From Strigamia acuminata (taxonomy: Eukaryota), in contig OX442314.1 of assembly GCA_949358305.1 (NCBI GenBank), forward strand, positions 17,732,001-17,796,000: a stretch of 64,000 bases of DNA. The letters run 5' to 3'. Every line of letters begins with the position of its first letter. Position 1 is the stretch's first letter. This document shows, in pieces, positions 5,717-58,512 of this stretch. The position numbers and the translations under genes were made by a program. The notes below the pieces were generated by a model that saw only the letters and a list, made by a program, of their open reading frames with translations, searched no databases and was not told the DNA's origin.

Positions 5717-6146
5717 ATGATTTCAACAAAGTTGTTTGCGTTGATAACACTGTTGCTAGCTGTGGACTTGTGCGGCGGTCGGAGACTTAGGCGACATCAC
5801 ATGAGGCTTTGTTTGGTTCAAGAAGATGGTGGTTTGGAAAGACGAGAAACGCGGGCAACTTTTATATTTACGGGAACAGTCCTCAAAGTTTACCGTAAAC
5901 CTAAACCGGAGTTGTACAAAGCGCAAGTGTTTGCAAGGAGAGTTCTTAAAGGCGATAAGATGTGGACAGATAAAGAAGTGATGATAGAAGGATTTGGAAA
6001 CGATTTACTCTGCTCGGGCCACGTGCGAAAGAAAGACACTCGCATTTTTTTCGCCGTCCAATCGGAAAAAGGCAAGTGGACGTTAAGCTCGAGCGTGATG
6101 AGATTGACCATTGCAAACTTGGATCGAATTACGGCCGCCATCAAAG
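5717..6146 (+). CDS. Agrn: Agrin first coding exon A: signal peptide + NtA domain (143 aa + 1 nt)
   Basis: In-frame TAA at 5696-5698 precedes the ATG. Hydrophobic leader MISTKLFALITLLLAVDLCGG. NtA motifs LERRE, IFTGTV, RVLKG, EGFGN..LC, DTRIFF and LSSSVMRLTIANLD match vertebrate agrin NtA (LERREEEANVVLTGTV...GFGDPLIC...DTRIFF...LNSSLMRITLRNLE, recalled). Donor AAAG|GTAAGA at 6146/6147 is phase 1. Confidence 0.93.
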
Positions 6147-14961: not shown

Positions 14962-15394
14962 ATGGAGTTATCAGTGTGGTTACATTGTATTATGGGAGCT
15001 GTTATCACTGCGCATATTAATTGCGTCGGTAGGTCTCGTATTTTTCCGCGTGATCTATGTGTTTTGCAGCTTGAAGGCGACGTGTGGTCGCGAGTATCTA
15101 AGGCTGATTTAATTTTCACGGGAACTGTTGTGAAAGTTCATCGTCGTTTAAATCGTGCTCAATACCGCGCTCAGCTGTTGGTGAGGCGAGTACTCAAAGG
15201 TGAAAGGACGTTAACTGATCAGGAAGTGCTCGTTGAGGGATTGGGGAACAGCAAATTGTGTTCATCGCACGTGCGGAAGAAGGACACTAGGATTTTCTTT
15301 GTGAACGAAATTGATGGGAAAAAGTGGAAGTTGAATTCCACTTTGATAAGACTTACCATTGCAAATTTGGACCAAATTGAAGCAGCAGTTGCAG
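14962..15394 (+). CDS. Agrn: Agrin first coding exon B: signal peptide + second NtA domain (144 aa + 1 nt)
   Basis: In-frame TAG at 14914-14916 lies upstream. Leader MELSVWLHCIMGAVITAHINCVG. NtA motifs IFTGTV, RRVLKG, EGLGN..LC, HVRKKDTRIFF and LNSTLIRLTIANLD are present. It aligns without gaps to exon A (61/113 identical, hand count). Donor GCAG|GTATGA at 15394/15395 is phase 1. Confidence 0.92.
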
Positions 15395-21300: not shown

Positions 21301-23254
21301 TGGCCTTGCGGAGACTTTAATCCATGTCAAGCGCACCTGTTTATTTAGAAAAGAATTGCACTTGTTTTCGTATAAAGGTGTACGCGACGTATTTATGCAA
21401 CATTTATGCTCCATTTCCGTTGGGTATTATTTTTCAAACTTATGGTATCCTGGTGTTTATGGTTCGTAATTAAAAATCCTTTTTTTCTTTTGATAATTGT
21501 AAGAGCGTAGAAAATTTAAATGAAAAATCTGTGGAGTGGAAACAAAGTTATTGTTCGTACAGAGAATGATTCGGGAAATTATTGTGAAAGGCTTGAGAAG
21601 GTGAAGGGGATGAAAAAAGAGAATTTGATTAAAAATACATGAACGTAGACGTTTTTTTCTTTTCTTGGATAAGGACAGATAGTGCATTGGATCCAGTTTT
21701 CGAGCAGCAACAACAAACTAGCTTCTTTTTTCGGTTTGAATATACGTATATATTTTTTTTTTTACTTCTATTTCACGTAATGCAATTGCATTTGTTTGAC
21801 TTTCGTCTGATTGCTGCTTTCTTTATTTTCGGGGATTTAAATGCCTGAGCTTGTTTGTCACTGAGAAATTAGATCTCGCCCTTGCAAGACCATATGCTCA
21901 TGAATTATAAAATATGGTCAGTTAAATGCACTTTCCACGGAGTCGCATATTGTCATGCGGGCTCGAAGTAATGATAAAGATGTTGGATGTGCCATTTTCG
22001 TTTAGCTTAACCCCCTGCAGCGCGTATGAGAAATCCGTGCACTAACTTTAATCTCTTGCTCTCTTTCAAACCGGCGATAAAGCAGAAGGTTGTATGTTTA
22101 GCTTATCTCGGTCTGCATACACATGCAAGTGACTCGGTTTGCATGCATATAAAGTGTTTGGATGTTCTGATTTAACATTGCATGAATCTGTTTTCACAAT
22201 TTTTTTTTTTGAAATTTGCTAGTATCAGTATTGACTTAATTTTCCTATGGTCCATTTGTACAAACAAGATGACAGAGCCGAGTTTCACAAAGTCCCTGTA
22301 AGCAGTTTTCTAATGTAAGCAGCAGTATAGATTGAAAGGACATTTGTGGAAAGGAAATTACAGTGAACCAACAAATCTTGAGAATTTAAGTACACGTTAG
22401 TATTGGTTGAAATTTTAACGAGAAAAATGTGGTTAGTTTGCGATTGTATCAAGAATAAATTGGTTTGTGGCACGAAAAGTGCAAAATGTTCATTTTTTGA
22501 TCCCGAAACAAGGGACAATTTCTGTGTAAGGAAGTTTGACTCGAAAATGACGCAATTTTGACGGCAATTATCTAGTCTGATGGCAGTATTTCGATAAGTA
22601 CGGTAATTACATCAATTTTACGTTATGTCTTGACACGCTTCACTGCGCGGTCGTAAAAAGCATGGAAACAAGCTACCAAATTGCATGAAGTCACTTGACG
22701 TATTGTATTGCATTTCGGAATTTAATAACGCCAGATAGTGCATTTCATACATGGTTTAACTGGGGATATTAATATTTAGGCCCATTGCACCAAACATGCT
22801 GTAACATCGAACTACGGAGTAATGCGAAAAATGGCATTGTAGGCTTTATTGAGAGTGTAATAACTGCTCTTACAATCACAATCACATCATTAAAGCCGTG
22901 GTTAAAGTAAGCCAACGAGCCAACCTACTTTTTGACTGGTCATTTCTCAATGACCACAACTGGACAGTAAAAAATAATGTCAGGTATTTAATGACAGCAA
23001 GAACAGCTGTCGTTCAATACAAAATTCGATTCCACAACGCCCATTTTTCACAAAACGTTTACGTAGTGTACCGTGGATGGAAGAACAGTGCCAAATCTTT
23101 TGAACTGGAGAACTCATTCGCTTCGCTCACTCATCCAATTATATAATTTGATATAAAAATGCAGTTAAACACGTTAAATAAGTAGAGGGTTACTTGGCGC
23201 TGGCTCTTTATTTGTTTATTATTTGCAAAAAGAAATTTTTAAACGTGTAATTTT

Positions 23255-23450
23255 TGGAGTGTTTAGTAGTTGAATGTTGTATTGTAGAAATGGAGAGACA
23301 GATTTTGAGCGATGCTCGTTGCTCAAGCTCTTCTCTCTAACTGCTTTATTACCTAGCTTTTCTTACAAGGAGTGCCCCCACATATGGTGACGCTCACGTA
23401 ACATAAACAAACTGAGACACATGTGAAAGTTGGGGGTGAAAGACACCCCA
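23255..23450 (-). repeat. 3' LTR (196 bp)
   Basis: Direct repeat of 24499-24694 with TG...CA termini. AATAAA on the minus strand at 23345-23350. Confidence 0.93.
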
Positions 23451-23619
23451 ATATCCCCTCAATTGCGAACACAGAGAGCAATTTAAGGAGAGCAATAAAA
23501 ACTTGAATAACAAACATTAGTAAAGTATAATGGAAAGGAATAACACTAGGATTGAAAAGAACATAGAAATTGAATCATCGTAATTGAACACATTGTAATT
23601 GAAATAAATTGTAACATGG

Positions 23620-24496: not shown

Positions 24497-24498
24497 TT

Positions 24499-24694
24499 TG
24501 GAGTGTTTAGTAGTTGAATGTTGTATTGTAGAAATGGAGAGACAGATTTTGAGCGATGCTCGTTGCTCGAGCTCTTCTCTCTAACTGCTTTATTACCTAG
24601 CTTTTCTTACAAGGAGTGCCCCCACATATGGTGACGCTCACGTAACATAAACAAACTGAGACACATGTGAAAGTTGGGGGTGAAAGACACCCCA
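24499..24694 (-). repeat. 5' LTR (196 bp)
   Basis: Direct repeat of 23255-23450, adjacent to the PBS. Confidence 0.93.
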
Positions 24695-26450
24695 ATTTTG
24701 TTTTAAATTAAATATATGTGTTATTTCTTTTTTTTTTTTTTTTTTTTGTTTTTTATTTAAATTTGAAGTTTACTGCTCCTGTGAAATTGCCTACGCTTAT
24801 AAGGCAAAAAAAATGAGGCAAGATTCAACAAACAACAATAAATTTCTTTTATTGGTGACAGAAGGTAAAAAGACACCGTTGTAATGACTTGTTTATAGTC
24901 ATTACAATTGCGTGTGGTCTACTGCCACTGGTGTCTGATCTCTGAAATTATCTCAAGGAAAAAGGCCTACAACGACTCAATTAGTTGGATATTAAATGAT
25001 TTTTATTAATATATATCTTTGTTTACACTTGGTAAGACAGAAACATGCTTGAAGGCATCAAGAAGAGGAATAAAAACATGTCAATTGTCAACAGAATAGA
25101 AATTATTGCGCTTGTCTCGTATGCCCTTTTTCCATAAAGTTGAATTGAATTTCATAGTTCAAAGTTTCTTTTATAATCGGGAGAGGGCTCATGTTTTTTT
25201 TTTTTTTTTTTTTTTTACTTTTTATTATTAAAAAAAACAGAATTCTGTTTTTTTTTTATAACTTGATAGGCAAATTAAATTTGGCGCTGGATGGTTATTT
25301 GACACGAGAATAGAAAAATAAAATTGGAAAACAGATTACAGTTGAGCAAGTTGATTGAGATTCCGAACAGGGAGCGCGTTTTTAATTAAAAGAAAAAATT
25401 CATTTGTAGCCTCAGTCAATATCACACAAGACAGAGCGTATAGTATTTGGGCTTGTCACTTAACTTTTGTAAATTTAAATAGAGTAACTTCGGTTTGGTT
25501 TCCTTATATTTTAAGAAGTCTTTTTTTTTTCTTCTTCTTTTTTTCAGTGAAGATTAATCAATTGAGTTTTATATTATTGGAACTAGAAGAATGTAATTTC
25601 GAGTTTTTCCTTTTTTCCTTCTCCATTCCTTCATCTTGTAATTTGCTGCGTTCAATCGTTTTTCGTTTTCTCTTTTATTCGCGCTCAAACCCTTTTACCT
25701 TAGAATATTGGTTGAAATGTCTAGGTTTTTTGCTTGCATTTTATGGGAGTGAGAGATTATTGAGAATTTTTCGCCATTTTATTGTAGGTTTAGGAGGTAT
25801 CAAAAGTATGATTGTAACCATCTGCATTTGATTATTTTCTCTGTAGGTGCGAATTATGCATGAGTTTTGATAAGAAATAATTTTCAGCTCGGGTTGGTAT
25901 AAAGAGAAGGGAAGAAAAAATGAATATCGTGCTCGAATAAGAAAAATTTCATTTGTACTTTCTACACCACACCATTTCACTGCTCAGACAATAATTTGAA
26001 AAGAAAGAGAGGAGGGAAACGAAATTTAATTTTCCAGTTTACCATAAAGTTTAGAATACATTTTTTTTTCTTCTTTCGTACCATCTAATAAACAAAAAAA
26101 TAAAAGCCCAAAAAAAATTGTCTAACAAGGAAAAATAAAAGTAGAAAAAAAAATAGAAATTGTCACTTGTTCACTAATAAGTTTTTTGCTTGACGTTTGA
26201 GGTCTTCATTTGAATAAATAAAATAGAAAAAAATATAAGTTTCATTTCCTATTACCAATTCAGAAAAATTCCGGTTTAGATTATTAAATATTAAAGGTTG
26301 GAATAAATTTTAAAAAAATTAAGGTAGAAAGTTTAAGTTAAAAATTTGTTTTTCTAGAATGGTTATTAATGAAGGCCCTGTCGCTAAAGGTGATGTCAGG
26401 CCTGTTGTAAAAGGTCGTTGCAGTCGAGTATCGCAAGTGCAACACGGGCG

Positions 26451-26490: not shown

Positions 26491-27898
26491 GTGCAATAGA
26501 GTTGTTTAGTCTGAGGTGCAAGATAAATGGTTAAGAAAGGTTGTTTAAGCAGACCTCACTGTCCCTCAGCAAGGGAATATAGAAAGGAAATGTCCCTTGG
26601 GTGCATTCACATGGTCAAGCAGTGCAGCCATTTCGGAGAGAGATCTAAGGGGCAAGAGAGCAATTCGTTTAAATTACTCTCTAAAGAATTATTCTTTGGA
26701 ATTAGTTTAATTTTCCCAATTCACTAAAGCTGAACATTAAGGGGTTTGTGCTAGTTGGTGTTTTGAGATTCTGACCACGATTTATTAGTGGGGCTGACAT
26801 AAAATAAATGTAGTTTGAAGTTGAAAATCGAGTTTTGCGCTGATTAAATAATTTTTTCATCCTTTTGTTGAGTTTTCTGAGATTTTTGCGATGAAAGTTT
26901 CAATATTTGATGTGATTAAAGGATTTAATTTGAAGAATACAGTCTGCTGCTTATGGCTGGAAATTGTTAGCGTGTTGGAGAGGAATGCATTTTGTGCATG
27001 CAAGTACTGTTTGCTAAAGTGATAATCCCGCTGGGTTGTTGATTGACAGATATTGTAGATGCTGTATTAAATTTTGAAAATCTGCTTGAAAGGATTTCTC
27101 AAGGGTTGGTTCAATTGAATGAACCACTTTTAAAATGTGGTGGGAGACATACAGTTGGGATCAAAATGTAAATAAATAAAAATGTAAATAAAAAATATAT
27201 TTTGTTTGAAATGGTCAAATGCGATAAATGGTGCGTGTACATCACGAATGTGATTATTAAAGGGAATGAGACACTGAAGTAATTCTGGCTGAAAAAATAT
27301 CTGCAGTTTTATTAAAGGTATATAATTTTTTTTTTATGTTGCCTTATAAGGAAAAGTTTGGACGGCTAACATATTGAGCTTGGTGAGCAACGTAGTTTGT
27401 CATTGCTAGTGAGGGCACTCTATGTGACCTCATAAATTGTATCAAAATGCATATGGAATAGATGGTTTAAGTGAGAGTGATGAGTGCAGTGAGCGGATTA
27501 TTTCTAAAAAGATATTTATTACATTTATACGTACATAACGCTCCTATGCAGTAAAACGTTTTCTTAAAACTAAATACAGAAATCAGAATTTTGCGACACA
27601 ACTGTGTATTGATTCATTGGTTATCAGGCATGGAGAAATGAGATTGCTAGCAAAAAAGTAACAGATTGCCATTCGGAAATGTTCTGGTTCCTAAAGATAT
27701 TTACAAGACAAGGAGCTGAGTTTTTTTTACATTCTCTACATTTTGTAGAAAGAGTTTGTTTCGAGGTATAGACCTTGGGCTGGTGTCATAGCTTGAATAT
27801 TTTGCCGATAGATTGAGTTATAGCTCTGCAGAACCAGCCGCCATTACTATATTGATAACAACAGACTTGACTTTGAGGTCATGTTTCTTGCTTAATTT

Positions 27899-28517
27899 TG
27901 TGACCAGCTGCCCACTCAGTCTGTGTCACTTACCTGCAACACACGGCGCTTCCACAGCTCTCGCGCACCTCGTGTGTTTCTCGTGCGCAGCCTGTCGCGG
28001 TCCCCCGCACCAGGTGGAGCTGTTGGTCGTTGGCTCCGCCAATTGGGAACCGGAAGTGCCCCTTCCGGAAGTGGTGGGCCCCCCAGTGGCCAAGTTCAGT
28101 GTTATCTGGATCAGCATGGTGAACGGTTGTTTCCCGACCTTCTTCCCATGCCTGATCGCAAGAGAGACCCAAATGATTGGCGCAGCTATGCTGTCGCCTG
28201 TCGGGACCTGAGCGTCCAACACGCCGTGTTCGTCGCATGTTCCTAAGAACGTTGCGACGACGCGGCGCAAACTGCATTCACCGATCTCGTGTGTCATGGC
28301 GATCTCAAGATTGTCGTGACACGCGGTCAAATCAGGAATGGCGGCTAAGCCGCCATTACACTTGGGACACCATATCATACCCCTAGACAACAATAAAGTA
28401 ATAACCAAAACCTAAACTTGTGTCTTTGTTGTATTTCGTGGATTTAATCATTGTGTGTGTTGCGTCCAGCGCCTCGTGGCCCCCCCTGACCACGTAACGT
28501 CTGTCCGAACACTCACA
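27899..28517 (+). mobile_element. Solo LTR (619 bp), probably Ty3/gypsy
   Basis: Sharp GC-rich island bounded by TGTGA...TCACA with a 4-bp TSD ATTT (27895-27898, 28518-28521). Contains CCAAT (28039), two CCGGAAGTG motifs (28050, 28065), and AATAAA (28392-28397) followed by a GT-rich tract. Confidence 0.8.
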
Positions 28518-31500: not shown

Positions 31501-34500
31501 TTGAAAACGTGGCTTGTTGGTCGTATGGATTTTTGCAACGTTGATGTCAGGTGTGCTTGGGATTTTAATTTCATTTTCAAGATTTTATACTTGGTTTATT
31601 TCTCTAGTGTTGCAATGTTATCAAATTAATATTGATTATCCACCGGTTAGTCGTGTAGCTAATGCTGAAGTGAAGCAAATAAACCACTATACAATATTAA
31701 CAGAGATTTATGCTGAGTGCACACATGTAGCGATTTAGTTAATAATTTATCAATTGTTATAATCTGAATTTTAATCAAAGTCAGAAAACTTGAAAAATAA
31801 ATTATGCACAGTTTTAACCCACCAGCAACACCATGCAGCCACTAGCTTGTTTTGCGTGCACAAACAGCGGAAACAAGTAAGACATTTAGGCAATGGCGAT
31901 GTTTGATGATGAGCAACGCAATGTGGGGCGTATTTAAAAGTGCGGAATGTGTTTTTTTATGCTAGTTGTGTGTGTTTGCCTTTCGTTTAGGAGCATGAAA
32001 ATGTTTATATCTTACGCGAAGATTTGACTGGCATTTATATGACATGGGTACAAAGCTCAAGCTAAAGCAATTTATTCATTAATAACTTTTTGTTAAAGTT
32101 AATTTTATTCACTCGCCGCATTTATTTTGATTTTAGTTGCTTAATTCCGCTTTGAAAGGTATTTTTAAACTAACACTGAAAAATTTTAAAGACATGGGTG
32201 ACTTTAAGAGATCAATTAAAAGATTAGACTGCATTCATCTAAGTGTTAATTATGAGATAAAACAGTGACACTAGTAGGGCAATTTGTGTGATGGAATGAT
32301 AATAGAATTAGCAGGCAAAAGGGAGTGGTCACATTTTAGCATAAATAAAAGAAAATTGAATTTTTGAAGACAGTTTGGTTGGTTTTGGGTTGAAATGAGT
32401 GCAGACCATAATGTTGATGAAGTGCACTTTGGTGGCAGACAAAACACTCCATTAGACATGTGGGTAGAATTTTGAGGGTGCATGTGTTGGATTGGATGGC
32501 CACCATGTGTGGTTAATGACACAATTTCTTATAGGGAGATGGGTGCGCGTTGTTGTCCTCCTCTGTCAACTGGCTTAAGCGGGCTTTCTTTGATAATTAG
32601 TCGTGATCATTAATTGTCCGATATTTGAAGTTTTAGACGAGGATGGTGGTAATGACACTTTAATGCAACGTGGTGGTCATTCTTAATGGAAGCTTTCTTC
32701 TTAATGCTTTTCACTGTCGGTGTGTTAAAAGAGAAAAGTAGATGAACTACTTTAAAGGTCATAAGAAGTGAAATGAAAATTTTCTCTGATCTCTTTAAAA
32801 TAATCTTATAAAAGCTTATGTAACATTTCTAACTGTTCAACTTATGGGATATTGTTTACAAGTACAAGTTTACAAGTTCATAAATAGTTTCACTACCGTT
32901 TGGTGGCTTTTTTTTATACATCATCGATGACAAACAAGCACATAAATTCAAGCGCCGATTCGCGATTTCAGCAAGTTTTCATGTGATATCGAGGAAGGAG
33001 ATGTTTTAACTACACTGTGGTACCATGTATGTTTTTAGCAACAAAATTCATGTTTTTAGCTACAAAGTAGATGTTAATTCAATCTTTTTAGCTCAAAAAA
33101 TAGGTTTTTTTTGCCATATTTTGATCAATTTTGGAATTCCACAGCTGCACAATACCCCGTGATAACAAATGAGTAAAATGAGCGGTAAGAGTGTTATTGA
33201 GAAACAATGTACGCATGGTGTGTTTACCTCGGTGTTTACAAATGACGTCATCGATGACATGAAATCTCAGAATGCATTGCACAAAATGTTTTTCTTTTTC
33301 AAATGGTAAAAACACTATTTGATCATGTAAAACCACTAAAACTTAATTATTGCTTAAGTTTTGCAGAAAAAATGTCACATAACCTTTTTTAAAGTTATTT
33401 TAAAGAGATTAGATAAATTTTTCATTTCTCTTCCTATGACCTTTAAAGGAGTTTTCAAAAAATGGTTGAAAGAGGATGTTGAGAATATTTACATTCTGAT
33501 ATTTCTGAATTCAGCTGCAGTAGAAAAAAGGTGCTTATGGAGGGATCAAAATGTGGTTGTTATTGAGCTGTTTATGTTCTCGAATGAGACGGAATAGCGA
33601 AATTGAGATAGGAATTAAGAAAAGAATAGCTTTTTACTTTTTTTTTTATCAAAACATTAGTTGCAAGTCTAAAGCTAGGCGACATTTTAAAGTTATCGGA
33701 CATGCAAAGCTGACATTTAATTTAATCTTCATGAAAAAATAGTTTCAGCTTCGAAAATATTTTTTTTTAAAAGAAAGATTATAGTGATAATGGGACGAAA
33801 TGTTAGTGCTTTGGCTGCTGTTTACATCAGAATTTCAATTCCTGAGTACCATGAGTTAGGGACTGTGCGGTAACTTGTATTTACATTCATTGAAATTGCA
33901 CGTATCGTCCAAATTTTAACGTTTGAGACAAAAAATGAAGGAAGAAATGAACATGATGTTAAATTAGAGGTTTTATTTGAAATTAGGGAGTCGCCCCGCT
34001 AAAAAGCAGTGACGTGAGGTAAATCAATAGCAATCACGAAATAAGTACACAGATTTATAAATATTTACCTGTTTCGAATTTCTTCGGTTTTCTGATATGG
34101 ATTTTATTCTACAGTGCGTAAAGTGTAGCTCGTGTTTTATTCACAGTTTTAAAATGTTACGGTATACATTTTTCAGGAGCGAGGAGTGAGTAAAGTTAGT
34201 TTTTATACTATTTTATCGCTGCATGCTGTCAACATGTTGGTGATTTTGCAGCGTAGAATCCCAGGTCCGTTTCGTAGTGACTCGTAATCTTGTGTTTTAT
34301 TCATCGGACCCATTTTAAAATTGTAAAAACAGCGCCCGAATGCGGGCTGCCTTCTTGGCACATGGTAAAAGTCGTGAGTGGAAATAAAGTGAAATATATG
34401 ATTGTCATATTCATTGGATGATATACAAGGGGTGAAATGTCACATCACGAAAGACAAGGGAGGATTCTTCTGATTATTGATTGCTCTTTTCTCCCAACAG

Positions 34501-45059: not shown

Positions 45060-46245
45060 AGTTGTAAAGCGTGTGTAGAAAGAATAGAAGCCGACAGTTG
45101 TGTGTGTGTGTGTGTATGCGTGCGATAGAAAAAGGAGGAGAAAGAGAAAGAGTAGCTCAATCTTTTGCCCTTGGTCTATGCACCCGTTCGATCGATTGGA
45201 CGCTGGGAGCAGCTCCACTTGTAGATATTCCTACACAACCTGAGCCTTCAACATTTCTGGGCTGGCTGCTGCTGCTGCTGGTGGTGCTCGTGCTGTTGCT
45301 GCTTGCTTCTTTCCCCCTACCACCCGGGAAATGGCAGTTGACTCAACCACCGATTGTCATGTACGCCCCATCAAGGTGTAGAGGCAGCTTGAGCGCGCGG
45401 TCGACACCATTCGCGCTGAGCGAAAAGGTGGAAGAGGAACGGAGCTAGGAAACGCTGGCACAAGTGGCTCGATGCTGCACGCGTCTGTCGTGTGATTTCG
45501 AGGGGATCTAGTGGTCAGAAGATGGTGTGAGCGAGCTTACCTGTGTCTTGACCGTCGTCGTGTCGAAATGGAGCTGCGTTCGGCACCATTCTGAAAAGCG
45601 TTGGTTCGTCAAGCGTGATGCTCGTCCCGGTTCCCTAGCAGCTGCTGCTAAATCTGTCTTGGATGATATTCGTTGCAAATTTGTGTAGGACGCGCTCACC
45701 TGAAAGCGCTTTGGGCGTGGTCGGATCTGGCGTTCAGGTGGGGAGAAAGTGAGGGCAGGCCGGCTGGCGAATGCTGACCCGTTCCGGCATCTGTTTCACG
45801 GATTTGGTTGCGAGGACACGTGGGCTGACCCATCAAACAGGTGACATTGTTGATTATTCACGGTTACGACGAGTTGTGTGTGTGCGCTGTCCTGTCATGA
45901 TTGTATTATGGATCTCATGATCGAGCATATCTGTTGGATTCTTCTTCTTCTTCTTCCACCACATTGTAGCGTGTGGCCTTAAAGAGACGAATTTGAGCAT
46001 TAAAAGTATCGTATCACGAGTGGAATTTATCATCGCGCCAATTGTATTATGTGCGTTTGGAAGAAGGTGGATGCGGCTTTTTTGGTGCGGAGTCGCGTTC
46101 GCTAATAACCGTTGACATATCTAACTGCATATCTTGCGTATGGCTTTCGGGAAAGCGCTAACTGCCAAGTCGACATCGTTGTATCGCGATTACGGAATCA
46201 GAGCTGGCAACGCACGATCCGAGACACTGGGCCGGAGGCGGCCGA
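45060..46245 (+). promoter_or_regulatory. GC/CpG-rich putative internal promoter and 5' UTR of the transmembrane isoform
   Basis: About 1.2 kb of raised GC and CpG with (TG)n, (CTG)n and (CTT)n runs, directly upstream of the TM exon. The TSS cannot be determined. Confidence 0.5.
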
Positions 46246-46555
46246 ATGCCTCCTACCTCCAACTCGACGACGACGGGGCACTTTCGGCCGAGTTCGCGCC
46301 CCAATTCGAACGCGGCCATGCCTCCCACCATGGTCATTCCGCTCAAATTTGATCCGACTGCCAAAGAGGATTCTAACGCGATGCCCGATCACCACTTCAC
46401 TGACCCAGGCGGGGGTGGGGTGTCGACCAAAAGAGAGGACAGCTCTCCATGCCTATGTGGGTGGCCATTAGGTCGACTCACAGCTCTTTTACTTCTGCTC
46501 ATCGTCATTCTAGTCGTCTTTGTGCTCATCGCTGGACTTCTTCTTTACTTCAAAT
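46246..46555 (+). CDS. Agrn: Agrin alternative first coding exon C: cytoplasmic tail + type II signal-anchor TM helix (103 aa + 1 nt)
   Basis: In-frame TAA at 46159-46161 lies upstream. About 75 polar residues are followed by GR-LTALLLLLIVILVVFVLIAGLLLYF-K. The donor AAAT|GTAAAT at 46555/46556 is phase 1 and coincides with the switch from GC-rich to T-rich sequence. It joins the shared exon as T|AC = Tyr. Confidence 0.8.
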
Positions 46556-47677
46556 GTAAATATTTGATCTTTTATTTATTTTTATTCCTACGTTTTCGAA
46601 GAATTTTTTTATTTTTTATTTTTTTGTTGTTTTATTTATTTTTTTTATATTTTTTTGGGGGGATATGGTATATGGAGGAATAAATTTTCTGGTTTTTGAT
46701 AGCGCGTATAGATTAGGTTTATAATGTATTGAATTTGAATGTCTCCTGGTGACAATTTGGACGAAATTTACGAGGAGTGTGGTCAGCATGATGGTAATTT
46801 GTTGACGGTTGAAAAGTCATAAATAATTTATGCTGAATGCGGCCCGCGTTTTAATGATTTATCTTTATTGCTCGCAACAAAAATTAGACGTGTGAAATTT
46901 TGATTATGTTTGAGCGTAGCAAAAGCCACACAAAGATTGGCTTTTTATGTCAACAAATTTAATAGGTGGATTTTTGGATAGGTTTCCTTTGGAGAGGAAG
47001 AGAGGAGGGGTCTTTTATCTCATTGGAAACACGCCAATTTGGCGCTCATTTGAATGGACGCAGGTGTGGACTGGAAGAAAACCCTCTTGTACGCATGCGT
47101 ATGAGCCTGATGTCCTCGCCAGAGGCACATCCTCTGTTGACGCGTTCATTCCGATAATGGATCATCCTTGTAATCGGGAGATAATTTCTCTCCCACGCAT
47201 TATTTTTCTCCCCCGTGGCGACACGCGGGGTGAGGCGAGCGTGTCTTTCAACGGTTGTGTCAGCAAATATTCAAAGTGGCTCAGGTTCCATTTGCCAACA
47301 TTTTTTAACCAATTTTACTAAATGAGGAATGAAATTGAGCCAAAATTGGTTTTTTTCTATAAATATATTTTTTTTATTTTTTATTTTTTTGTAACCTCTT
47401 TCGCGACCGCTCTTCACTTGCACTCAGCCGTGTTTTTAAGGGGAAAAAATAGTTTCTATTTTGTGATTAATTTTAAACGAGCGCGTGCCTGAGTGTACAG
47501 TTAGAGGGCAAATTAGACAACCCTATTCCCAACACAGTATACGATGTTGTTTTAAGCAGAGAGTAAATCATTTCCCCACGGTGTTGTGAGAAAGGAACAG
47601 CCGGTTGCCGAAGTGAAATGAGTATGAGAGACTCGAAGAATGAAAGTCTGGTTTGATGTTGTTGTTGCCTGTTTGAT

Positions 47678-47926
47678 ATGCACACGGTAAAGGGGTTTTC
47701 AGCAATTGTGCAGTCAATTGGCCTGCAATATACGAGGAATCCATTAAAGCGGATCTGCACTTGTCCTCTTGTCCCCCAAGAAAGGTTTGAGGTGATGCAG
47801 TTGTTATTAAATTACCGAGCACAGATTGAGTCTGTGGGCCGAGAGCCAAGGGGAAATGACCTGCATGGAGGGTTTTACACTGGAAATTGGCATGAGTGGC
47901 AAAAATTATGTAAAGTAGAGATGTGA
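47678..47926 (+). pseudogene. Possible decayed ankyrin-repeat fragment
   Basis: The ORF reads VKGFSAIVQSI...RNPL...FEVMQLLLNYRAQIE.VG...NDLH, resembling the ankyrin consensus TPLH.A...G..EVV.LLL..GA.V...D..G.T.LH with key residues lost. Confidence 0.4.
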
Positions 47927-50900
47927 AATGAAATCTTGAAAGCGGCAATAGATTGTGTAGTTTGAAGGGTTTTATGGGCAAATGGGAGCATTAGGACCAC
48001 GAGTTTTACTTATTTATTAATTTTTTTAAAAACTCCGTTTGAGTAATTAATACTCCGTAGTTTAATTAGCGTAATAGAGAAAATACTTAGTAAATTATAT
48101 GGAAATATAGTTTGACCGCATGGAGAATAAGCTGTTCGGTTATAATGTGCTAATTATGGCGACTTTGTTTTATGGGTTTAAAACAAAGCTATCTGCTTTC
48201 TGACACTTAACTGCAGCGTTTAATTTGCAAAGTGATTTATTGATTGTGTACCGTAATAAAGTTATTGAAAGGTTTTGTGTTCGTGCAAACGAATAGTACT
48301 TGGAAAAGCAAAGAATTATTTCGAACGAAATTCCTCATTTGGCTTTAAAGTTGAAACTGCCAATCACATTTCGTGGTCACCTCTCTAACCTTTGCAGGCC
48401 CTCACGCGTTCACATAAACCTAGAAAAGATGTGACGCGAACCCATTTGACATTGCTAGCCTTCGAGTTTGACTCGGATACGTCGGAAAAATATTACATGT
48501 ATATACAAAAAATATGAAGGATTTTTGTAGTTTTTCAGCTTAATTTTTTTTAATGATGGTGTTTTAAAAATTCACGTCATCTGCTACATGGGAAGGGACA
48601 TTTTACACTGCTGTTAGGTTATATTGGCTCTTGGGATCGGTGGTGGAGGGATGAGAAATCGACTTGTATAACGACGGATGATGAATTTTAATGGCGAAGT
48701 TTTAAATTTATATGTCTTCAATTTATATCTATCCTACTTTGGCACTTCTTTCGTGGATGATTATTATGGGTTTCGTTCAACCCTCTAGGAATAAAAGCGA
48801 ATAAAGATGAAGAGTTTTCTAAGACTGAAGAGAATAAATGCATAATACGGTCAATAATAAATTGCATGTGTTATGAGTACGCCAAAAAGTTTTTCATATC
48901 ATATCCATATTGACACTTTAAGGCAAACACATAAACAGTTTCCTTTTCCCATTTAAGCGTAGTCGTCAAGTGCTACGCAAGCCTTAATGGTGGTCGGCAT
49001 CCTTGGCGTTGATTAGAAAGTTCACTTTTAATTTCATAATGGAAACGCATCACTTACTCACTCGTAGTCTTGGTTAAAAAAAGTGGAAATAACTTATTGA
49101 TTTTTAAATAGTTTAATTGATATACCTTATTGGCTTTTCATTTATATTAAAAATGGTTGCGCAGTGACTCGACTGAAAGAGTTGGAAATTGATTGGATTG
49201 TACGCACCGTGAAATGTTCAAATGGCCAGACCACTTGATAAATAGGAAAGTTGAGCTGAAAATAATTGTGGTGTATAAATAAATCTCTTTCTGTGTGTCA
49301 AATTATGTGTGATTAAATATTGAATTTTGAAATGAAACGTCTATTTGTAGAGCTTCAAATGATACGATTTATTAGCGTCAGTTTTGCTAAAAATACAACA
49401 GCACTTATTTTGATGAGCTACGAATGAAATCTCTGGTGATATTAACCAGTTTTCTTTTACTCCGTATTTTTTTTGAAAATTCCGATGAAAACAAAGTTGG
49501 GTGTATGGAAATTTTAAAATTTTAATCTATCGCTTTTAGAGATAAAAATGTAGTTTGTTAATGTATTTATTCAGGTTGCACGATAAATTACCATATTTTG
49601 GTTTTATCAGAAAAGTGTTATCCGAGTGTACGCCGAGATAAATGAAGTGTGAGAGTTTTCTTGTGTAAGAAATAAATCTGAGAAACGCTAGTGGGCAACA
49701 GTTGAAGCGATGCATCATCATGTTGACAAGAGGAGATGGAATGTTTCCATGTCAAGAGCATTGTGTATGTGTTGGGATGAGTATGTTAGCTGCGCATGAG
49801 TGGAACACGGAAGATAAGGTGCGGGACGGAAAGAGACGGGAAACGAATCTGATATACACCCGACTATCTTTTGTTGAACCACAAGCTGTGAAAACAGTAA
49901 GAGACTCATCTCAAATCTCCGTTTACTTTACTTAAAGAGGATGATAGACTTTAAGCGTTTTTCTAGAGACTCGTCATTCGGCGATGATGGACTGCCTCCG
50001 CACGTATACGCTGTAATTTGACAGAACTCCACTCCAGATAAGTGCTGGTTGCTGGTACATGATATCAAATGTTGGTGGTTAAATAAGTTTAAAATTTGTG
50101 AGAAGAACACGGGCGAAAATTTTTAAATTGATTTCTCTTTGGAATTATGCATGGATGGATAAATTATCAAATTTGCAACAATATTTACAGGTTTTTATTT
50201 TGGTTGACCAAGAATAACACTCATGCATAGTATACACATAATAAAGATGCATTTTATTAACATTTTAATCAGTCTTTTGGTTAGTTTTTTTTTAAGGTTA
50301 GGATTTTAGCTTCGGAAATGCGAAAATATTGTTTTTGTTTTTAAGGGAGTTCGTGAAAAATCGACTTTTGTTTTAGTAGCATGCTTTATGCTTTGATTTT
50401 TATGTAGATGGATGTTTCACGTGTTTGTCAGTGTGTAGGTAAACTCAGATTTATCTCGAGAAAAATGGAGAAATGTGAAAATGCTTCCATATACTCTCTC
50501 TTCGCTCCCCTCGAATGCACATGTGTATAGATGTTTACGCAGTTCTCCACGAACCGACATTTTTATTACTTACCGGTAGTCTAAGTTGTGGATTCAGTCT
50601 TAATTATAGACGTCTCGTCTTAATTATACTCGGAAATGATGGTACAGGCATGATTCTTTTATTTTATTATAAAATTCTTGTAGTAGATTAGAATCAATAA
50701 ATTACATTGCAAGACGAGCTCATAAAAGTGACTTGGAATGAAATGGAAGATTAAATAATAGAAAAGTACGCTGATTTTTGAGTGCTTTTTATTTGTGGAA
50801 ATATATAAGAAATTGATGCAATTTTTATTTGTAAAAGAAAAAAAAAGAGAAATGATGAATGATATAGTGTTAGAAATTTGAATTTTTTGCAGTCGTGTTG

Positions 50901-53900
50901 CAGTGATGATAGCGAGATGTGTCCATTTATCTCAGGCTTGTAGTTTATGGTTTTGGAAAAAGGAGATTGAGTTTTTGGCAGACGAGAAATCCAGTGTTTT
51001 CAATATGGTGGTGTGATAATGGGCGGGATTGTACGACGGCTGCAGCTTGTTTAGGGGCCCCGAGTGAACGTTGTGGGGATGGAGAAGGTGGGGAGATTTC
51101 GAGTTCTGGTCTGAGTTATCGCACCTGTGTGGTTTGTGTTTGGCGTCTTTATTCAGCCCAAGAGTCGAGTTTAAAAGTATGAGCCTCTTTCTCTTGGCCG
51201 ATGTGAGGCTAACATATCCCACTTTGCTGTTCGACACGTGTCTAATTGGTGTCTTAATGAAGGCGTCATCTTTCGATTCCAGTTAGATTAGACGTCCATC
51301 ATCCATTTTGTTGATGGTCTTTTATTGCTCTTTAATGCAATAGCGAATTTATAATGCGGCCACGAGTGATGAATTGCCGGTTCATACGAAAGGGAGAAGC
51401 AATATTTCTGAAAATGTAATAATTTATGAAAATTAAAGTGTAGTTTTTTTCTCCCGATCTTTAAGAAACGCCGGTAATGGTCTACGTTTTTGAAATTCAT
51501 GAGTTGAATATTAATTACCTCATTTCGAATTGATTCGGATTGAGAAGTAAGATTTATGATTCAAGTATTTTTATTCCACTTTATGAAAATAATAAGCTAG
51601 TGATTGAGATTTACTTTGTCGAATAAAATAAATGTTGCATTTTTGCTTACTCAATCGCTGTAGATTGAGGTGCAACGTTGAGATTCAAAGTAGGAAGTGG
51701 AATACGGATTCCGAATGCTACTAATGAATTGCTGGAGGAAAATGATTTTGCAATTACACGTTGTGCACCTTGTATTTTGAGTCGCTGTCTTTCGCCGTCC
51801 ATCCCACTTAATATCTGTGTCTGTTTCAGGGTAAATGGAGAAGCGCAAGAGGGAACGGGAATATAGACGTGGTGCGCGATCATTGAACCGAGACGGGATT
51901 AGCTTGGTGATGGAAACGTGTACGCATTTCTAGTTACACGTTATTTTATAGCTAAATCGCTATCTCGCCGTGAGATGAAAAAGTGTTTAAAATTTTATTG
52001 ATGCGGTTTGGTTGGGTCATATCGAAACATGTCCGTATAATAATGTTGTAGTGTTATCTGCGTTTTGCAGTGGATGAATATGAAAAAAGATGTATATTTC
52101 TGGCTTGAGGAGGTAATTTTTTTCTTTTTTTCTTTTTCGTTGTTTCTTTTTTTGTGTGTGATGAATTCCCGTGAGTAGTCTTGGAACAAGAGAGCAGATG
52201 GTTTGGTCCTTTGCGTTTTATTTTGGCTTCTGGCTGTTTGCGAGTATGGTAATCAGATGGCGGTGGACATAACGGAGTGTTACCAAGTTGCAAAACAAAA
52301 AATGAAAGGAAACCTGAATGCTTGGTGTTATGCGCGCGTGCTCAGAGGAATCAGCAGATGTTCATTCTGAACTGATGGCACACCACAACAGCCCTCGCAG
52401 TCATCTTTAATGCAGCTGACTCGAGGTGGTGTGAAAGAAACTGGACTTTTTTCTTTTATTTTTTTTTTGAAAAAGAAAAATGGGATGAGTTTGAATTTTT
52501 CCTTTTTGCAGAGAAAATGTAACTGGAAAAAAAGGTGACTTCATTTCATTTCTTCTTGTTAAATTCACATCGCAAAGATTTTTCCATTTTTTGCCACAAC
52601 AAATTTGTCCAACACATTTTTCACGGGACAAAAAAATCAAATCCATATTTTACGTTTGGATTTATTATTTTTCTTTTGTTAAAAAAAATTAGAGGTTTTT
52701 ATTTATCTTGGCCCTAGTGTGTGATTTTTATATTTTTATTCATTTCTCGTGTAAATGTGTCGTGCGTGATCTAATTGCCTATGAAGGTAAATGAAATGGC
52801 ATGAGAGGAACAGTTCCGGGTTGGATTGTGAAGGATTTGTGAAGACTCTGGGCAACATTAATTTAAGGTAGTAGACCCTAGTGTGACATCTGAAAATAGT
52901 GAAAACTTTTTTCCTTTTCTTTTCCTTTTTCTGTGTTTTGAATCTGAGCGCGCTTGACTGATTTATGATAGCTACAGCATGCGGGTCTGTGAATTTAAGC
53001 AAAGGAAGCGCCATCACATTCATCCGAGCATGATATGAGTGTAAGGTGCTTCTCTAATGTGCCATAATAGGTCTAGAAAACTCGTGGAACAGAATGGTAG
53101 CTCGTCAAAAATTTTGAAGGTGTAGTCAGAAAGAAGTGTGAGGAATGAGTCTCATTTTGTAGTGCGAAAAACCGGGCATATAAAAAGAAAATGATAAAAA
53201 CCGGAATGTTGGAATTGTGCGCGATGCTGGCTAGCAAATAGTGATTTTTGTATACACCGTACGTGTAAAAAGAATTTTTTTCATAACCAGTTTTGCTTAC
53301 TTACACGAACATAGAGGGAATTTAATTTCGCGTTTAATGGTTTTTGAGGAAGACTAGGTGTGGCTTGACACAGACAGGAATTAGTAATCAATTATTATTG
53401 GCCTTAAAAGTGTTTTTGCTCTATTTTGCGTGAGTTAACGAGAGAAATGGTTTAAATAACGGTGAAATGACGTAACTAAATGTTAAATGGTGCTGGTAAT
53501 CAGTTATCCGAGAGAATTTTATTATATAGCAAGGATGTTAAAGGGAATGATGCATTAGTTATGGCGGAAGGGATAGTAAGACTCTTTGTAAGCTAATCAT
53601 TAGACGGCGTTGTTTAGTTGTTCGTAAATTACTATTGCCGTAATTTTTCCTGCTATTTATGGGCTTGTTGTTTAGAAAACAGGCGTATAAAAGATATTGT
53701 TTTCACCTGCTGAGTTTAAACTGGGTATCATTTTTCAGTTGTCAGAAACTTATTGTGTTGTCTTGGAAGTTTACCATTGTGTTTAACGAGTAAAAAAAAA
53801 TGGTTTTGTCAAGTCTCGTGCTGGCGCTTGGAAGTTGAAACAATGGGAGCGGTATAGTGAGTCACTGAATTGTTGATAGTTTTTATTATTTTTTTTCTTT

Positions 53901-55166
53901 TCTTTAATATTATACTTGAAATAATGTGAAGGTTTTTTTCTTCTTTCATCTTTTAAAAGCGAAGTTTTATTTAAACTTTGTTTTCAATTTATTAGGTATC
54001 GACTAATACAATTTGAAGATTGCAATCTGTTGATTTAAAGCTCAAGAGAACGGGTTCAATCCAACATCGATATGCGGTGACAAATCTCAAGTGTTTTTAA
54101 GTCGCGGGCCGGCTCTCTCTGGAGGGCAGTCGAGATAGAAAAGTTTTAAATTTGTTTTCTCTACTTGAGCCTTTTTTCTTCTTCTTTTCTTCGATTCGTC
54201 CGTCGAAATTAGCTTTGGGTGCTGCTAATCCATCTGTAAATATTGAATTGTAACAATGCAGGAGAAGAAAAGAATATATTTTGGGCATTTCTTTTCCTAT
54301 CCGACGTTTCTTTTCATGACATCCGTCTCTTTTGTATGCTGCGCGGTGGTTTCCATTTACGAGACTTCGCTCAGGAGATTTGGATTTGGGAAAAAAAGGT
54401 GTGGACGGGGTTGAAATGATATGCTTCAATTTTTTTTAAAACCTATAAATATAAATATAGGGGAAATTAAATTGTCTTGATTTTAAATTTGTTGAAAGCG
54501 CTTTTATTTCTCTGCTTTGTTGTTTTTGTTTTTGGTTTAGTTGTTGTACGACACGTTATTTTTATGTTGTTTATTTTTATATATTTACTTTGGAAGTGGA
54601 GACAAATTGGAAATCTAAGCGTAGAACCCCACTATGTTTGTATGGGGGGGACATGAGAAATTTGTTGCATCGATTTGCCAATGTGAGAAAATCCAATACT
54701 GTCAAGTTTATAAATTTCACTTAGGAAAAAATTTAATATTTGCAGCAAGGGGTTTGTGTTCGAGTTGTTTAATTGGAATTTTTTCCTTTTTATGTTTGGT
54801 ACGTGAGGGTATTTTTCCGGTTCACCTAATACATTTCCTTTAAAAGAAGATCAATCAGGGTGGAAAATAAAATATACGAAAATGTAGCACGGGTTAGAAC
54901 GAAGGAGGTTTATTATGTGGGAATGAATTGCCTTTCAAATTCAGCACCATCTGTGTGCTGTTGTCCATTTGTCAATAGCCAACAATCGTCTCGTTATGAA
55001 GGTGACATTAGGCATTTGCTTATCGTTAAAGCTGTAGTTAAAAATTTGATTAATTAAAAGTAATGACAATTTATTTCGAACATAGACATAATTTGTGTTA
55101 AATGTAATCGAAATGTGCATTATTCATATTAAAATATCTGATTATTTTATTTCTTTTTCATTTCAG

Positions 55167-55202
55167 ACGTTCCATATCAAGCAAGACCACCAATAAACGA
55201 AG
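55167..55202 (+). CDS. Agrn: Agrin first shared exon, 36-nt phase 1-1 linker (D/Y)VPYQARPPINE
   Basis: Long pyrimidine tract TTTTATTTCTTTTTCATTTCAG| and strong donor GAAG|GTAAGA. It is open in phase 1 and Pro-rich, like the vertebrate (D/Y)KPG.HFTP.PPTPP linker between the N-terminus and the first follistatin domain. Confidence 0.85.
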
Positions 55203-58228: not shown

Positions 58229-58512
58229 GGTGTGTTCAAATTGGTTAAGCAAATGCTTAAAGTTTGCTTAAATGAATGAAAATAAGTGAAGCAAGTAAAA
58301 TAAATGACTGCAATTTTTTTTTACTAATGCGCAGGCTTGTGCACAGCTGACACATGTATGATTGTTCAACTGAGGATGCACAAATCGCGTCATTGTTGTT
58401 AGAAGAATAAGCGACACAACCCTTGCTAGCGGTTAATCCAAAATGTGACTTAAAAACTGTGAAAACGAGGTTATCATTTAAGCGGATTTGTCCTAATCAA
58501 TTTGAATGCACC
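58229..58512. mobile_element. MITE, copy 2
   Basis: TA|GGTGTGTTCAAATTGGTTA ... TAATCAATTTGAATGCACC|TA terminal inverted repeats flanked by TA. The interior is similar to 1969-2299. Confidence 0.75.

What the first reader, a model, noticed from the sequence alone, without database searches (positions are those of the whole stretch)
46246..55202. Invertebrate transmembrane (SN-like) agrin with the same D/Y split-codon junction as vertebrates
Seen: the NtA exons donate G and the TM exon donates T to the shared exon's AC, giving Asp or Tyr. Known (recalled): mammalian LN agrin reads ...FCVE-D-KPG and SN agrin ...LFLSN-Y-KPG, and SN begins MPP, as this exon does. Exon order (NtA, then TM, then short linker) is also the same. 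Inference: the secreted/TM switch may predate the protostome-deuterostome split, or it is a close convergence.
Basis: partly seen in the sequence, partly recalled or inferred. Interest (0 to 1): 0.8.

Follow-up and report, generated by a model that had tools for sequence, protein, structure and literature searches.

The report
Ancient secreted-or-membrane switch in agrin
This invertebrate agrin gene has two start exons for the NtA (laminin-binding-type) domain and a third for a predicted membrane anchor, which a close relative splices onto the shared exon, and matching gene models in starfish, scorpions, insects and molluscs suggest that this secreted-or-anchored choice, long described for vertebrates, likely dates from the common ancestor of bilaterian animals.

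Summary
Two signal-peptide+NtA exons (5717-6146, 14962-15394) donate G, and the hydrophobic exon (46246-46555) donates T, to a 36-nt exon starting AC (55167), giving Asp or Tyr. Contigs of a close relative join 46555 to 55167 at GT..AG; two unspliced runs do not. Public models put a membrane-anchor N-terminus at this junction in jawed vertebrates, starfish, crinoids, chelicerates, insects and molluscs; 40 of 45 distinct ones have Tyr there, and ten invertebrate species show both forms. Against: shared phase and position are forced by the common acceptor; helices show no in-register similarity across phyla; the three molluscs lack the Tyr; no anchored model was listed for lamprey, amphioxus or hemichordates; the MPP start is likely coincidence. 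Insect membrane agrin is already in print as a prediction (PMC2874008 supplement); nine searches found no statement that the switch is pan-bilaterian. The scan noted duplicated NtA exons in another genome before (e1-7499325). Verdict: real three-way first-exon choice (about 0.9), likely ancestral to Bilateria (about 0.65).

The parts
5717..6146 (+). Alternative first exon 1, coding part: signal peptide + NtA domain in one exon, phase-1 donor giving G (Asp with the linker)
   Evidence: Pfam PF03146 E 1.3e-20; donor; X1 contig covers 5370-6146 and leaves the genome at the donor with 26 further letters; 9 of 14 changed codons listed for organism A are synonymous (only the first 15 coding substitutions were shown)
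14962..15394 (+). Alternative first exon 2, coding part: signal peptide + NtA, 54% identical to exon 1, phase-1 donor giving G
   Evidence: Pfam PF03146 E 7.4e-23; tblastn; X1 contig covers 14705-15391 with 30 letters running on
45305..46245 (+). Long 5' leader of the membrane-anchor exon in a GC/CpG-rich island; likely own promoter upstream (inferred)
   Evidence: One X1 contig runs 45305-46555 without a splice; GC over 0.5 from about 45100 to 46500 against about 0.35 elsewhere; 14 upstream ATGs in 45253-46245
46246..46555 (+). SN-like first exon, coding part: about 77-residue hydrophilic N-terminus, then the helix, then K and a T donated to the split Tyr codon
   Evidence: in-register similarity to insect (z 6.8) and chelicerate (z 4.2) anchors; 39%, 39% and 34% identity to three termite-type read-through ORFs
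46477..46551 (+). Predicted transmembrane helix (residues 78-102), predicted type II signal anchor
   Evidence: Kyte-Doolittle 19-mer mean 3.62, no hydrophobic stretch in front of it; topology inferred, no dedicated predictor run
46556..55166 (+). 8611-nt GT..AG intron
   Evidence: Joint 46555>55167 in X1 only
55167..55202 (+). Shared 36-nt linker exon, phase 1-1, starts AC
   Evidence: same 12-codon length and similar sequence as the insect linker, which bees can skip as a cassette (P0389 against P0399/P0400); similar to starfish and scorpion linkers

Best explanation
This agrin gene has three phase-1 start exons in front of one shared 36-base exon: the membrane-anchor exon is spliced to it in a close relative and would make a type II membrane protein, the two NtA exons likely splice to it to make secreted, laminin-binding agrin, and the choice is likely inherited from the last common ancestor of bilaterians. 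Mechanism: promoter choice (inferred, by analogy with mouse, PMC2189804) decides which first exon is used. NtA exons give G+AC = Asp, a cleavable signal peptide and a basement-membrane-bound protein. The anchor exon gives T+AC = Tyr, keeps a short cytoplasmic tail inside, and displays the follistatin, EGF and laminin-G domains at the cell surface. Shown: exon structure, phases, transcription of all three exons in organism A, the anchor-to-linker joint, homology of the anchor to arthropod agrin anchors. Inferred: NtA-to-linker joints, topology, separate promoters, the downstream domains (outside the window), laminin binding, single origin. Confidence about 0.9 for the local architecture and about 0.65 for single origin including vertebrates; the number given is for the whole statement.
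For: Joint in X1 at the predicted coordinates. NtA contigs stop at their donors. The intron after NtA sits in one column across animals: the window's V143 aligns with human V153, and 115 of 146 aligned NtA hits have G, S, R or C there, the residues an N|GT read-through gives (four proteins over 450 aa left out; some G rows are spliced products). Seven vertebrate-type rows are among them. Of 258 stored proteins of 900 aa or more, 135 start with NtA and 56 with an anchor; these are 45 distinct anchors, 40 with Tyr at the junction (read by eye from the printout). Both forms at the same junction in one species: Acanthaster planci (N/Y), Antedon mediterranea (D/Y), Centruroides vittatus and C. sculpturatus (N/Y), Tribolium castaneum, Tenebrio molitor, Haliotis rufescens (D/D), Octopus sinensis (G/G), Liolophura sinensis (G/S), and Apis mellifera (NtA form P0390, anchor form in PMC2874008 Table S1). 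The first polar residue after the helix lies 1-2 residues before the junction in all 4 vertebrate, 4 echinoderm and 3 chelicerate rows, 7 of 8 insect rows and the window. Four of four termite-type read-through ORFs end the helix LYFN-C, that is T|GT, as the window does. T at the last exon base is uncommon at animal donors (recalled, roughly one in ten), so three lineages sharing it is not expected from chance alone.
Against: Phase, position and use of the same linker are forced by the acceptor and are no evidence of homology. No cross-phylum pair of anchor groups scored best in register; the best, vertebrate-echinoderm at offset -1, p 0.003, is not significant after 15 offsets and 15 pairs. 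The 3 mollusc anchors end 5-9 residues before the junction and give D, G or S; a leafhopper gives H; a mite model is unclear. No anchored model was listed for lamprey (0 of 7), amphioxus (0 of 15 listed from an 84-member cluster, 0 of 5 further representatives), hemichordates (0 of 3), sea cucumbers (0 of 5 full-length), Lingula (0 of 7), nemerteans (0 of 3), Babylonia (0 of 4), Gigantopelta (0 of 3). Ciona was corrected to a secreted form and C. elegans gave one isoform by 5' RACE (PMC1939731 passages). The three nearest outgroups of jawed vertebrates thus show no anchor, which fits a separate vertebrate origin; these are partial lists of automatic models. Tyr is favoured at membrane interfaces (recalled), so selection could produce it more than once. 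The joint rests on one run of one study, in a relative, with RNA status guessed and a 30-letter short side. No follistatin exon lies in the window.
Confidence: 0.63

Rival explanations
1. Convergence: the phase-1 intron after NtA is an old hot spot, and anchor-coding first exons arose there separately, for example in jawed vertebrates, echinoderms, arthropods and molluscs. The Tyr recurs because the linker starts AY and Tyr suits the membrane interface.
For: No in-register helix similarity between phyla; mollusc geometry and residue differ; no anchor listed in lamprey, amphioxus, hemichordates; cytoplasmic tails range from about 15 to over 400 residues and the MPP start is not shared; the same gene gained another N-terminus in protostomes (16 of 258 models) and a second NtA exon here, so new first exons do arise.
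Against: Needs at least four gains at one site, three with the same uncommon donor base and the same 1-2 residue spacing; absences come from short lists of automatic models, and sea-urchin models lack any N-terminal exon, showing how incomplete these 5' ends are.
Confidence: 0.28
2. The anchor exon is the only real start of the long agrin in this animal; the NtA exons make short separate products or feed another gene, so there is no switch here.
For: The letters that follow the NtA donors in X1 were not displayed, so their partner is not shown; the NtA exons lie 40-49 kb from the linker.
Against: Both are phase 1 and in frame with the linker; their contigs run on only 26 and about 27 letters, as expected where 31-letter-word contigs merge into a shared exon (inference); arthropod models join NtA to the same linker (P0164, P0390, P0405).
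Confidence: 0.05
3. The hydrophobic stretch is a cleaved internal signal, so the third exon makes a secreted agrin without NtA rather than a membrane protein.
For: Topology was not tested; PMC2189804 itself did not recognise a transmembrane domain in mouse SN (passages).
Against: A 25-residue helix 77 residues from the start with no small-residue cleavage pattern after it (sequence); TMHMM called the insect homologues type II with N-in probability over 0.99 (PMC2874008 Table S1).
Confidence: 0.04

Closest known systems
Vertebrate LN/SN (NtA/TM) agrin alternative N-termini (Burgess et al. 2000, PMC2189804; passages and section 13 read)
   Same: NtA exon(s) upstream, single anchor exon with its own 5' leader, then a short first common exon; D/Y split codon at the same column; helix ends 1-2 residues before the junction.
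   Different: Here signal peptide and NtA lie in one exon (at least three in mouse) and are duplicated, giving three starts; introns of 31 kb and 8.6 kb against 8 and 0.4 kb; tail of about 77 residues against about 25; no detectable helix sequence homology; neural specificity and separate promoters untested.
Predicted type II membrane agrin of Apis mellifera and Tribolium castaneum (Banyai et al. 2010, PMC2874008; passages, section 17 and the whole of Table S1 read; Figure 1 seen only as legend)
   Same: Homologous helix and junction (GIVLYLN-Y and GILLYFN-Y against AGLLLYFK-Y) and a 12-codon linker.
   Different: That paper gave insects only the anchored form without NtA, and its legend assigns two alternative N-termini to vertebrates; it does not discuss a switch in invertebrates in the parts read. 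Here both forms lie in one gene and the splice is seen in contigs.
Echinoderm agrin N-termini as reviewed in PMC10381214 (passages read)
   Same: Notes an NtA-less, membrane-type N-terminus in Asterias rubens and Patiria miniata agrins.
   Different: Labels it a Major Facilitator Superfamily structure and treats NtA as absent in most echinoderms; the models fetched here show it as the alternative to NtA at the same junction (Acanthaster, Antedon).
Unpublished automatic RefSeq/UniRef agrin isoform models of arthropods, molluscs and echinoderms
   Same: Both N-termini are already modelled as numbered isoforms in many species.
   Different: They carry no isoform interpretation; none of the full-length NtA rows printed showed two different NtA first exons in one species.

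Membership tests
Agrin | N-terminal NtA domain after a signal peptide | tested here: met
   PF03146 above cut-off in both exons; matches to solved agrin NtA chains; signal peptide judged from sequence only
Agrin | Follistatin/Kazal repeats, laminin-EGF and laminin-G domains downstream | not testable with these tools
   No follistatin-like motif in the three + frames of the window; no genome held; the homologous anchors and linkers lead into these domains in other species
SN/TM agrin | Alternative first exon between NtA and the first common exon, spliced to that exon in frame | tested here: met
   in a close relative, one run
SN/TM agrin | Single uncleaved helix, type II topology | tested here: inconclusive
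   Hydropathy and position fit; no topology predictor or experiment
SN/TM agrin | Split Tyr codon at the same column as the NtA form's Asp | tested here: met
SN/TM agrin | Sequence homology of the anchor to vertebrate SN | tested here: inconclusive
   Window against 4 vertebrate anchors: score at offset 0 near the shuffle mean, best at -1 with z 1.8; short hydrophobic stretches rarely keep such a signal
SN/TM agrin | Own promoter, neural-enriched expression | not testable with these tools
   Only contigs available, which cannot show starts or levels; GC/CpG island and unspliced leader are suggestive
Arthropod membrane-anchored agrin | Helix alignable in register with insect and chelicerate anchors | tested here: met
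   z 6.8 and 4.2 at offset 0; alignment A1

The most novel reading that the evidence does not exclude
The secreted-versus-membrane switch of agrin is an ancestral bilaterian feature, fixed at one phase-1 junction with a Tyr kept in vertebrates, echinoderms and arthropods since the protostome-deuterostome split, older than agrin's vertebrate role in receptor clustering. This animal has widened it to three start exons by duplicating the NtA exon, and protostomes share a further NtA-less secreted start that skips the first follistatin domain.
Probability: 0.63. Interest if true: 0.7.

Novelty: new variant of a known kind. Interest (0 to 1): 0.58.

Why it matters
The papers read treat the two N-termini as a vertebrate arrangement, with the membrane form tied to brain neurons and filopodia. 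If the switch is ancestral, membrane agrin has an old function that predates the vertebrate neuromuscular role. That function becomes testable in tractable invertebrates by isoform-specific knockdown (Tribolium, starfish). Drosophila lacks agrin (PMC2874008) and C. elegans has one isoform (PMC1939731), which may be why it was overlooked. It also corrects two printed readings: insects as anchor-only and the starfish anchor as a transporter fragment.

Tried and rejected
No genome is held for the window, so downstream exons and organism were not reached. Word-indexed searches with the NtA1 exon (825 candidates) and the anchor exon (266 candidates) among longer proteins found nothing; weak negatives. 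The run search listed no holder on record as RNA; X1 is RNA by guess and behaves as spliced. The second read laying did not display the loose ends at the NtA donors. The ESM Atlas gave only sub-0.9 hits to unnamed arthropod clusters, a lead only. The NtA tree fell back to the quick method: the two window NtAs group together (SH-aLRT 83, unstarred) and the organism is not placed; nearest rows are chelicerates. Arthropod, probably not an insect, is an inference from a conserved NtA plus an insect-like anchor. A metagenome scan with a termite-type anchor ORF found no locus. The MPP argument was rejected. The hydrophobic ORF at 45068-45445 is a CTG-repeat stretch at the start of the leader with no Pfam match and was rejected as a second anchor exon. 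I considered reading the joint's depth of 287 as the sum of three first exons and rejected it: it is the junction contig of the anchor exon alone, and contig depths cannot rank exons. Literature searches found no paper stating a pan-bilaterian switch; the library lacks most subscription papers, and Neumann et al. 2001 was seen only as a citation. PMC6966886 gave only reference-list hits. Nine other supplements of PMC2874008 were not read.

Full report
What is in the sequence. The window is an AT-rich animal locus (GC about 0.35) holding the 5' end of an agrin gene on the + strand. Two exons each encode a signal-peptide-like start plus a whole NtA domain (5717-6146 and 14962-15394; Pfam PF03146; 54% identical). 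Both end at phase-1 donors with G as last base. A third ORF, 46246-46555, encodes about 77 hydrophilic residues, a 25-residue hydrophobic helix and a Lys, and ends at a phase-1 donor with T as last base. It is the clear outlier among 91 candidate ORF-plus-donor combinations in the 49 kb scanned. A 36-nt exon at 55167-55202 has a good acceptor, begins AC and ends phase 1. Joined in a script, the products read ...AAIK-D-VPYQARPPINE...AAVA-D-VPY... and ...LLYFK-Y-VPY.... No follistatin exon lies in the window and no genome is held.

Is it spliced? Three runs hold the region. X2 and X3 (organism B) give long unspliced contigs. X1 (organism A, RNA by guess) gives one contig over 45305-46555 that ends at the donor, and a joint 46555>55167 with GT..AG ends, found in X1 only. 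X1 also covers both NtA exons and leaves the genome at or within 3 bases of their donors; the following letters were not shown. So the anchor-to-linker splice is shown in a relative, in one run, and the NtA-to-linker splices are inferred.

How far does it reach? A profile-free HMMER search with NtA1 gave 189 hits, 150 listed. In 146 aligned rows, 115 have G, S, R or C exactly at the junction column, the residues an unspliced N|GT gives, including seven vertebrate-type rows; human V153 aligns with window V143. The intron after NtA is therefore the same intron across bilaterians. A search with the follistatin region of a hemichordate agrin gave 932 hits, 120 listed, and 30 clusters were opened. 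Among 258 stored proteins of 900 aa or more, 135 begin with NtA, 56 with an anchor, 16 with a third N-terminus, 45 are partial or other and 6 lacked the motif used. The 56 reduce to 45 distinct anchors, from teleosts, caecilians, a rodent, starfish, crinoids, horseshoe crab, scorpions, a mite, many insects, an abalone, an octopus and a chiton. Forty have Tyr at the junction; the exceptions are three molluscs (D, G, S), a leafhopper (H) and an unclear mite model. Ten invertebrate species show both forms at the same junction (Apis by P0390). Termite-type read-through ORFs confirm a T|GT donor in insects (4 of 4). The first common exon is a short phase 1-1 exon in insects (skippable) and, by one read-through ORF, in a fish-type sequence (P0070).

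Homology or convergence? Phase, position and linker are forced by the shared acceptor and prove nothing. The free features are the last base of the exon and the distance from helix to junction. Both agree in vertebrates, echinoderms, chelicerates, insects and the window: a polar residue 1-2 positions before a Tyr. T at this position is uncommon in donors (recalled). Within arthropods and the window, the helices are homologous in register (z 4.2-6.8); between phyla no register signal survives correction. Molluscs differ in spacing and residue, though all three have a Tyr-Ser just after the helix, which could reflect a shifted donor (inference). No anchored model was listed for lamprey, amphioxus, hemichordates, sea cucumbers, Lingula, nemerteans or two gastropods. 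These lists are partial and automatic, yet the gap around jawed vertebrates is the strongest point for a separate vertebrate origin. The MPP start is not shared beyond the rodent and is discounted. I put single origin at about 0.65, convergence at about 0.28.

What is known. Mouse LN and SN forms, their exon order and separate promoters are described in PMC2189804 (passages; section 13). PMC2874008 predicts type II membrane agrin without NtA for Apis and Tribolium in its Table S1 (whole file read) while assigning two alternative N-termini to vertebrates (passages; section 17). PMC1939731 found one isoform in C. elegans (passages). PMC10381214 saw the starfish anchor and called it a transporter-family structure (passages). 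Nine searches found no statement that the switch is shared across Bilateria; subscription papers are mostly outside the library. The scan's notes hold a duplicated NtA pair in another genome without RNA support and no look-alike of the anchor exon.

Verdict. A real SN-like first exon, spliced as predicted, in a gene with two NtA alternatives. Invertebrate membrane agrin as such is not new; the recognition that it is the alternative to NtA at the vertebrate junction across protostomes and deuterostomes appears to be, as does the three-way layout with transcript support. New variant of a known kind; interest 0.58.

Noticed in passing
stored proteins P0196, P0198, P0211, P0258, P0261, P0263, P0264, P0281, P0300, P0381, P0393, P0394, P0414, P0440 and others: A third agrin N-terminus in 16 of 258 models, from molluscs, an annelid, chelicerates and insects: a signal-peptide-like stretch, then CY-x-(F/Y)-P...DP, entering at what appears to be the second follistatin domain. 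It looks like a conserved protostome internal first exon for a secreted agrin without NtA; none came from a deuterostome.
   Followed up: partly
window 5717-6146 and 14962-15394: Duplicated single-exon signal+NtA cassettes, 54% identical, sister to each other in a weak tree, both covered by X1 contigs up to their donors.
   Followed up: partly
window 45253-46245: About 1-kb leader with 14 upstream ATGs; the one at 46140 opens a 70-codon ORF overlapping the main ATG out of frame. The best-context in-frame ATG is 46330, so the true start may be downstream of 46246.
   Followed up: no
window 46450-46458; insect, vertebrate and mollusc anchors: Cysteines near the cytoplasmic end of the helix (C69, C71 in the window; also in insect, vertebrate and mollusc rows): candidate palmitoylation sites (inference).
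   Followed up: no
P0399, P0400 against P0389, P0396: Bees can skip the 12-codon linker exon, joining NtA directly to the next exon with Glu.
   Followed up: no
window 23253-23452 and 24497-24696: 200-bp direct repeat, 99.5% identical, flanking 1044 bp with no Pfam match: possible small terminal-repeat element or recent duplication.
   Followed up: partly
window 27800-28500: GC/CpG-rich island inside the 31-kb intron with no Pfam match in four frames tried; unexplained, possibly another promoter or a mobile-element remnant. It was not covered by either read laying.
   Followed up: partly
window 32745-32828 / 33370-33453; 1975-2047 / 58235-58307: An 84-bp inverted repeat pair (87%) and a 73-bp dispersed repeat that is high-copy in X2 and X3.
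   Followed up: no
whole window: GC skew is positive in all 32 bins of 2 kb (0.04-0.30), as expected for a long gene transcribed on the + strand (interpretation recalled).
   Followed up: no
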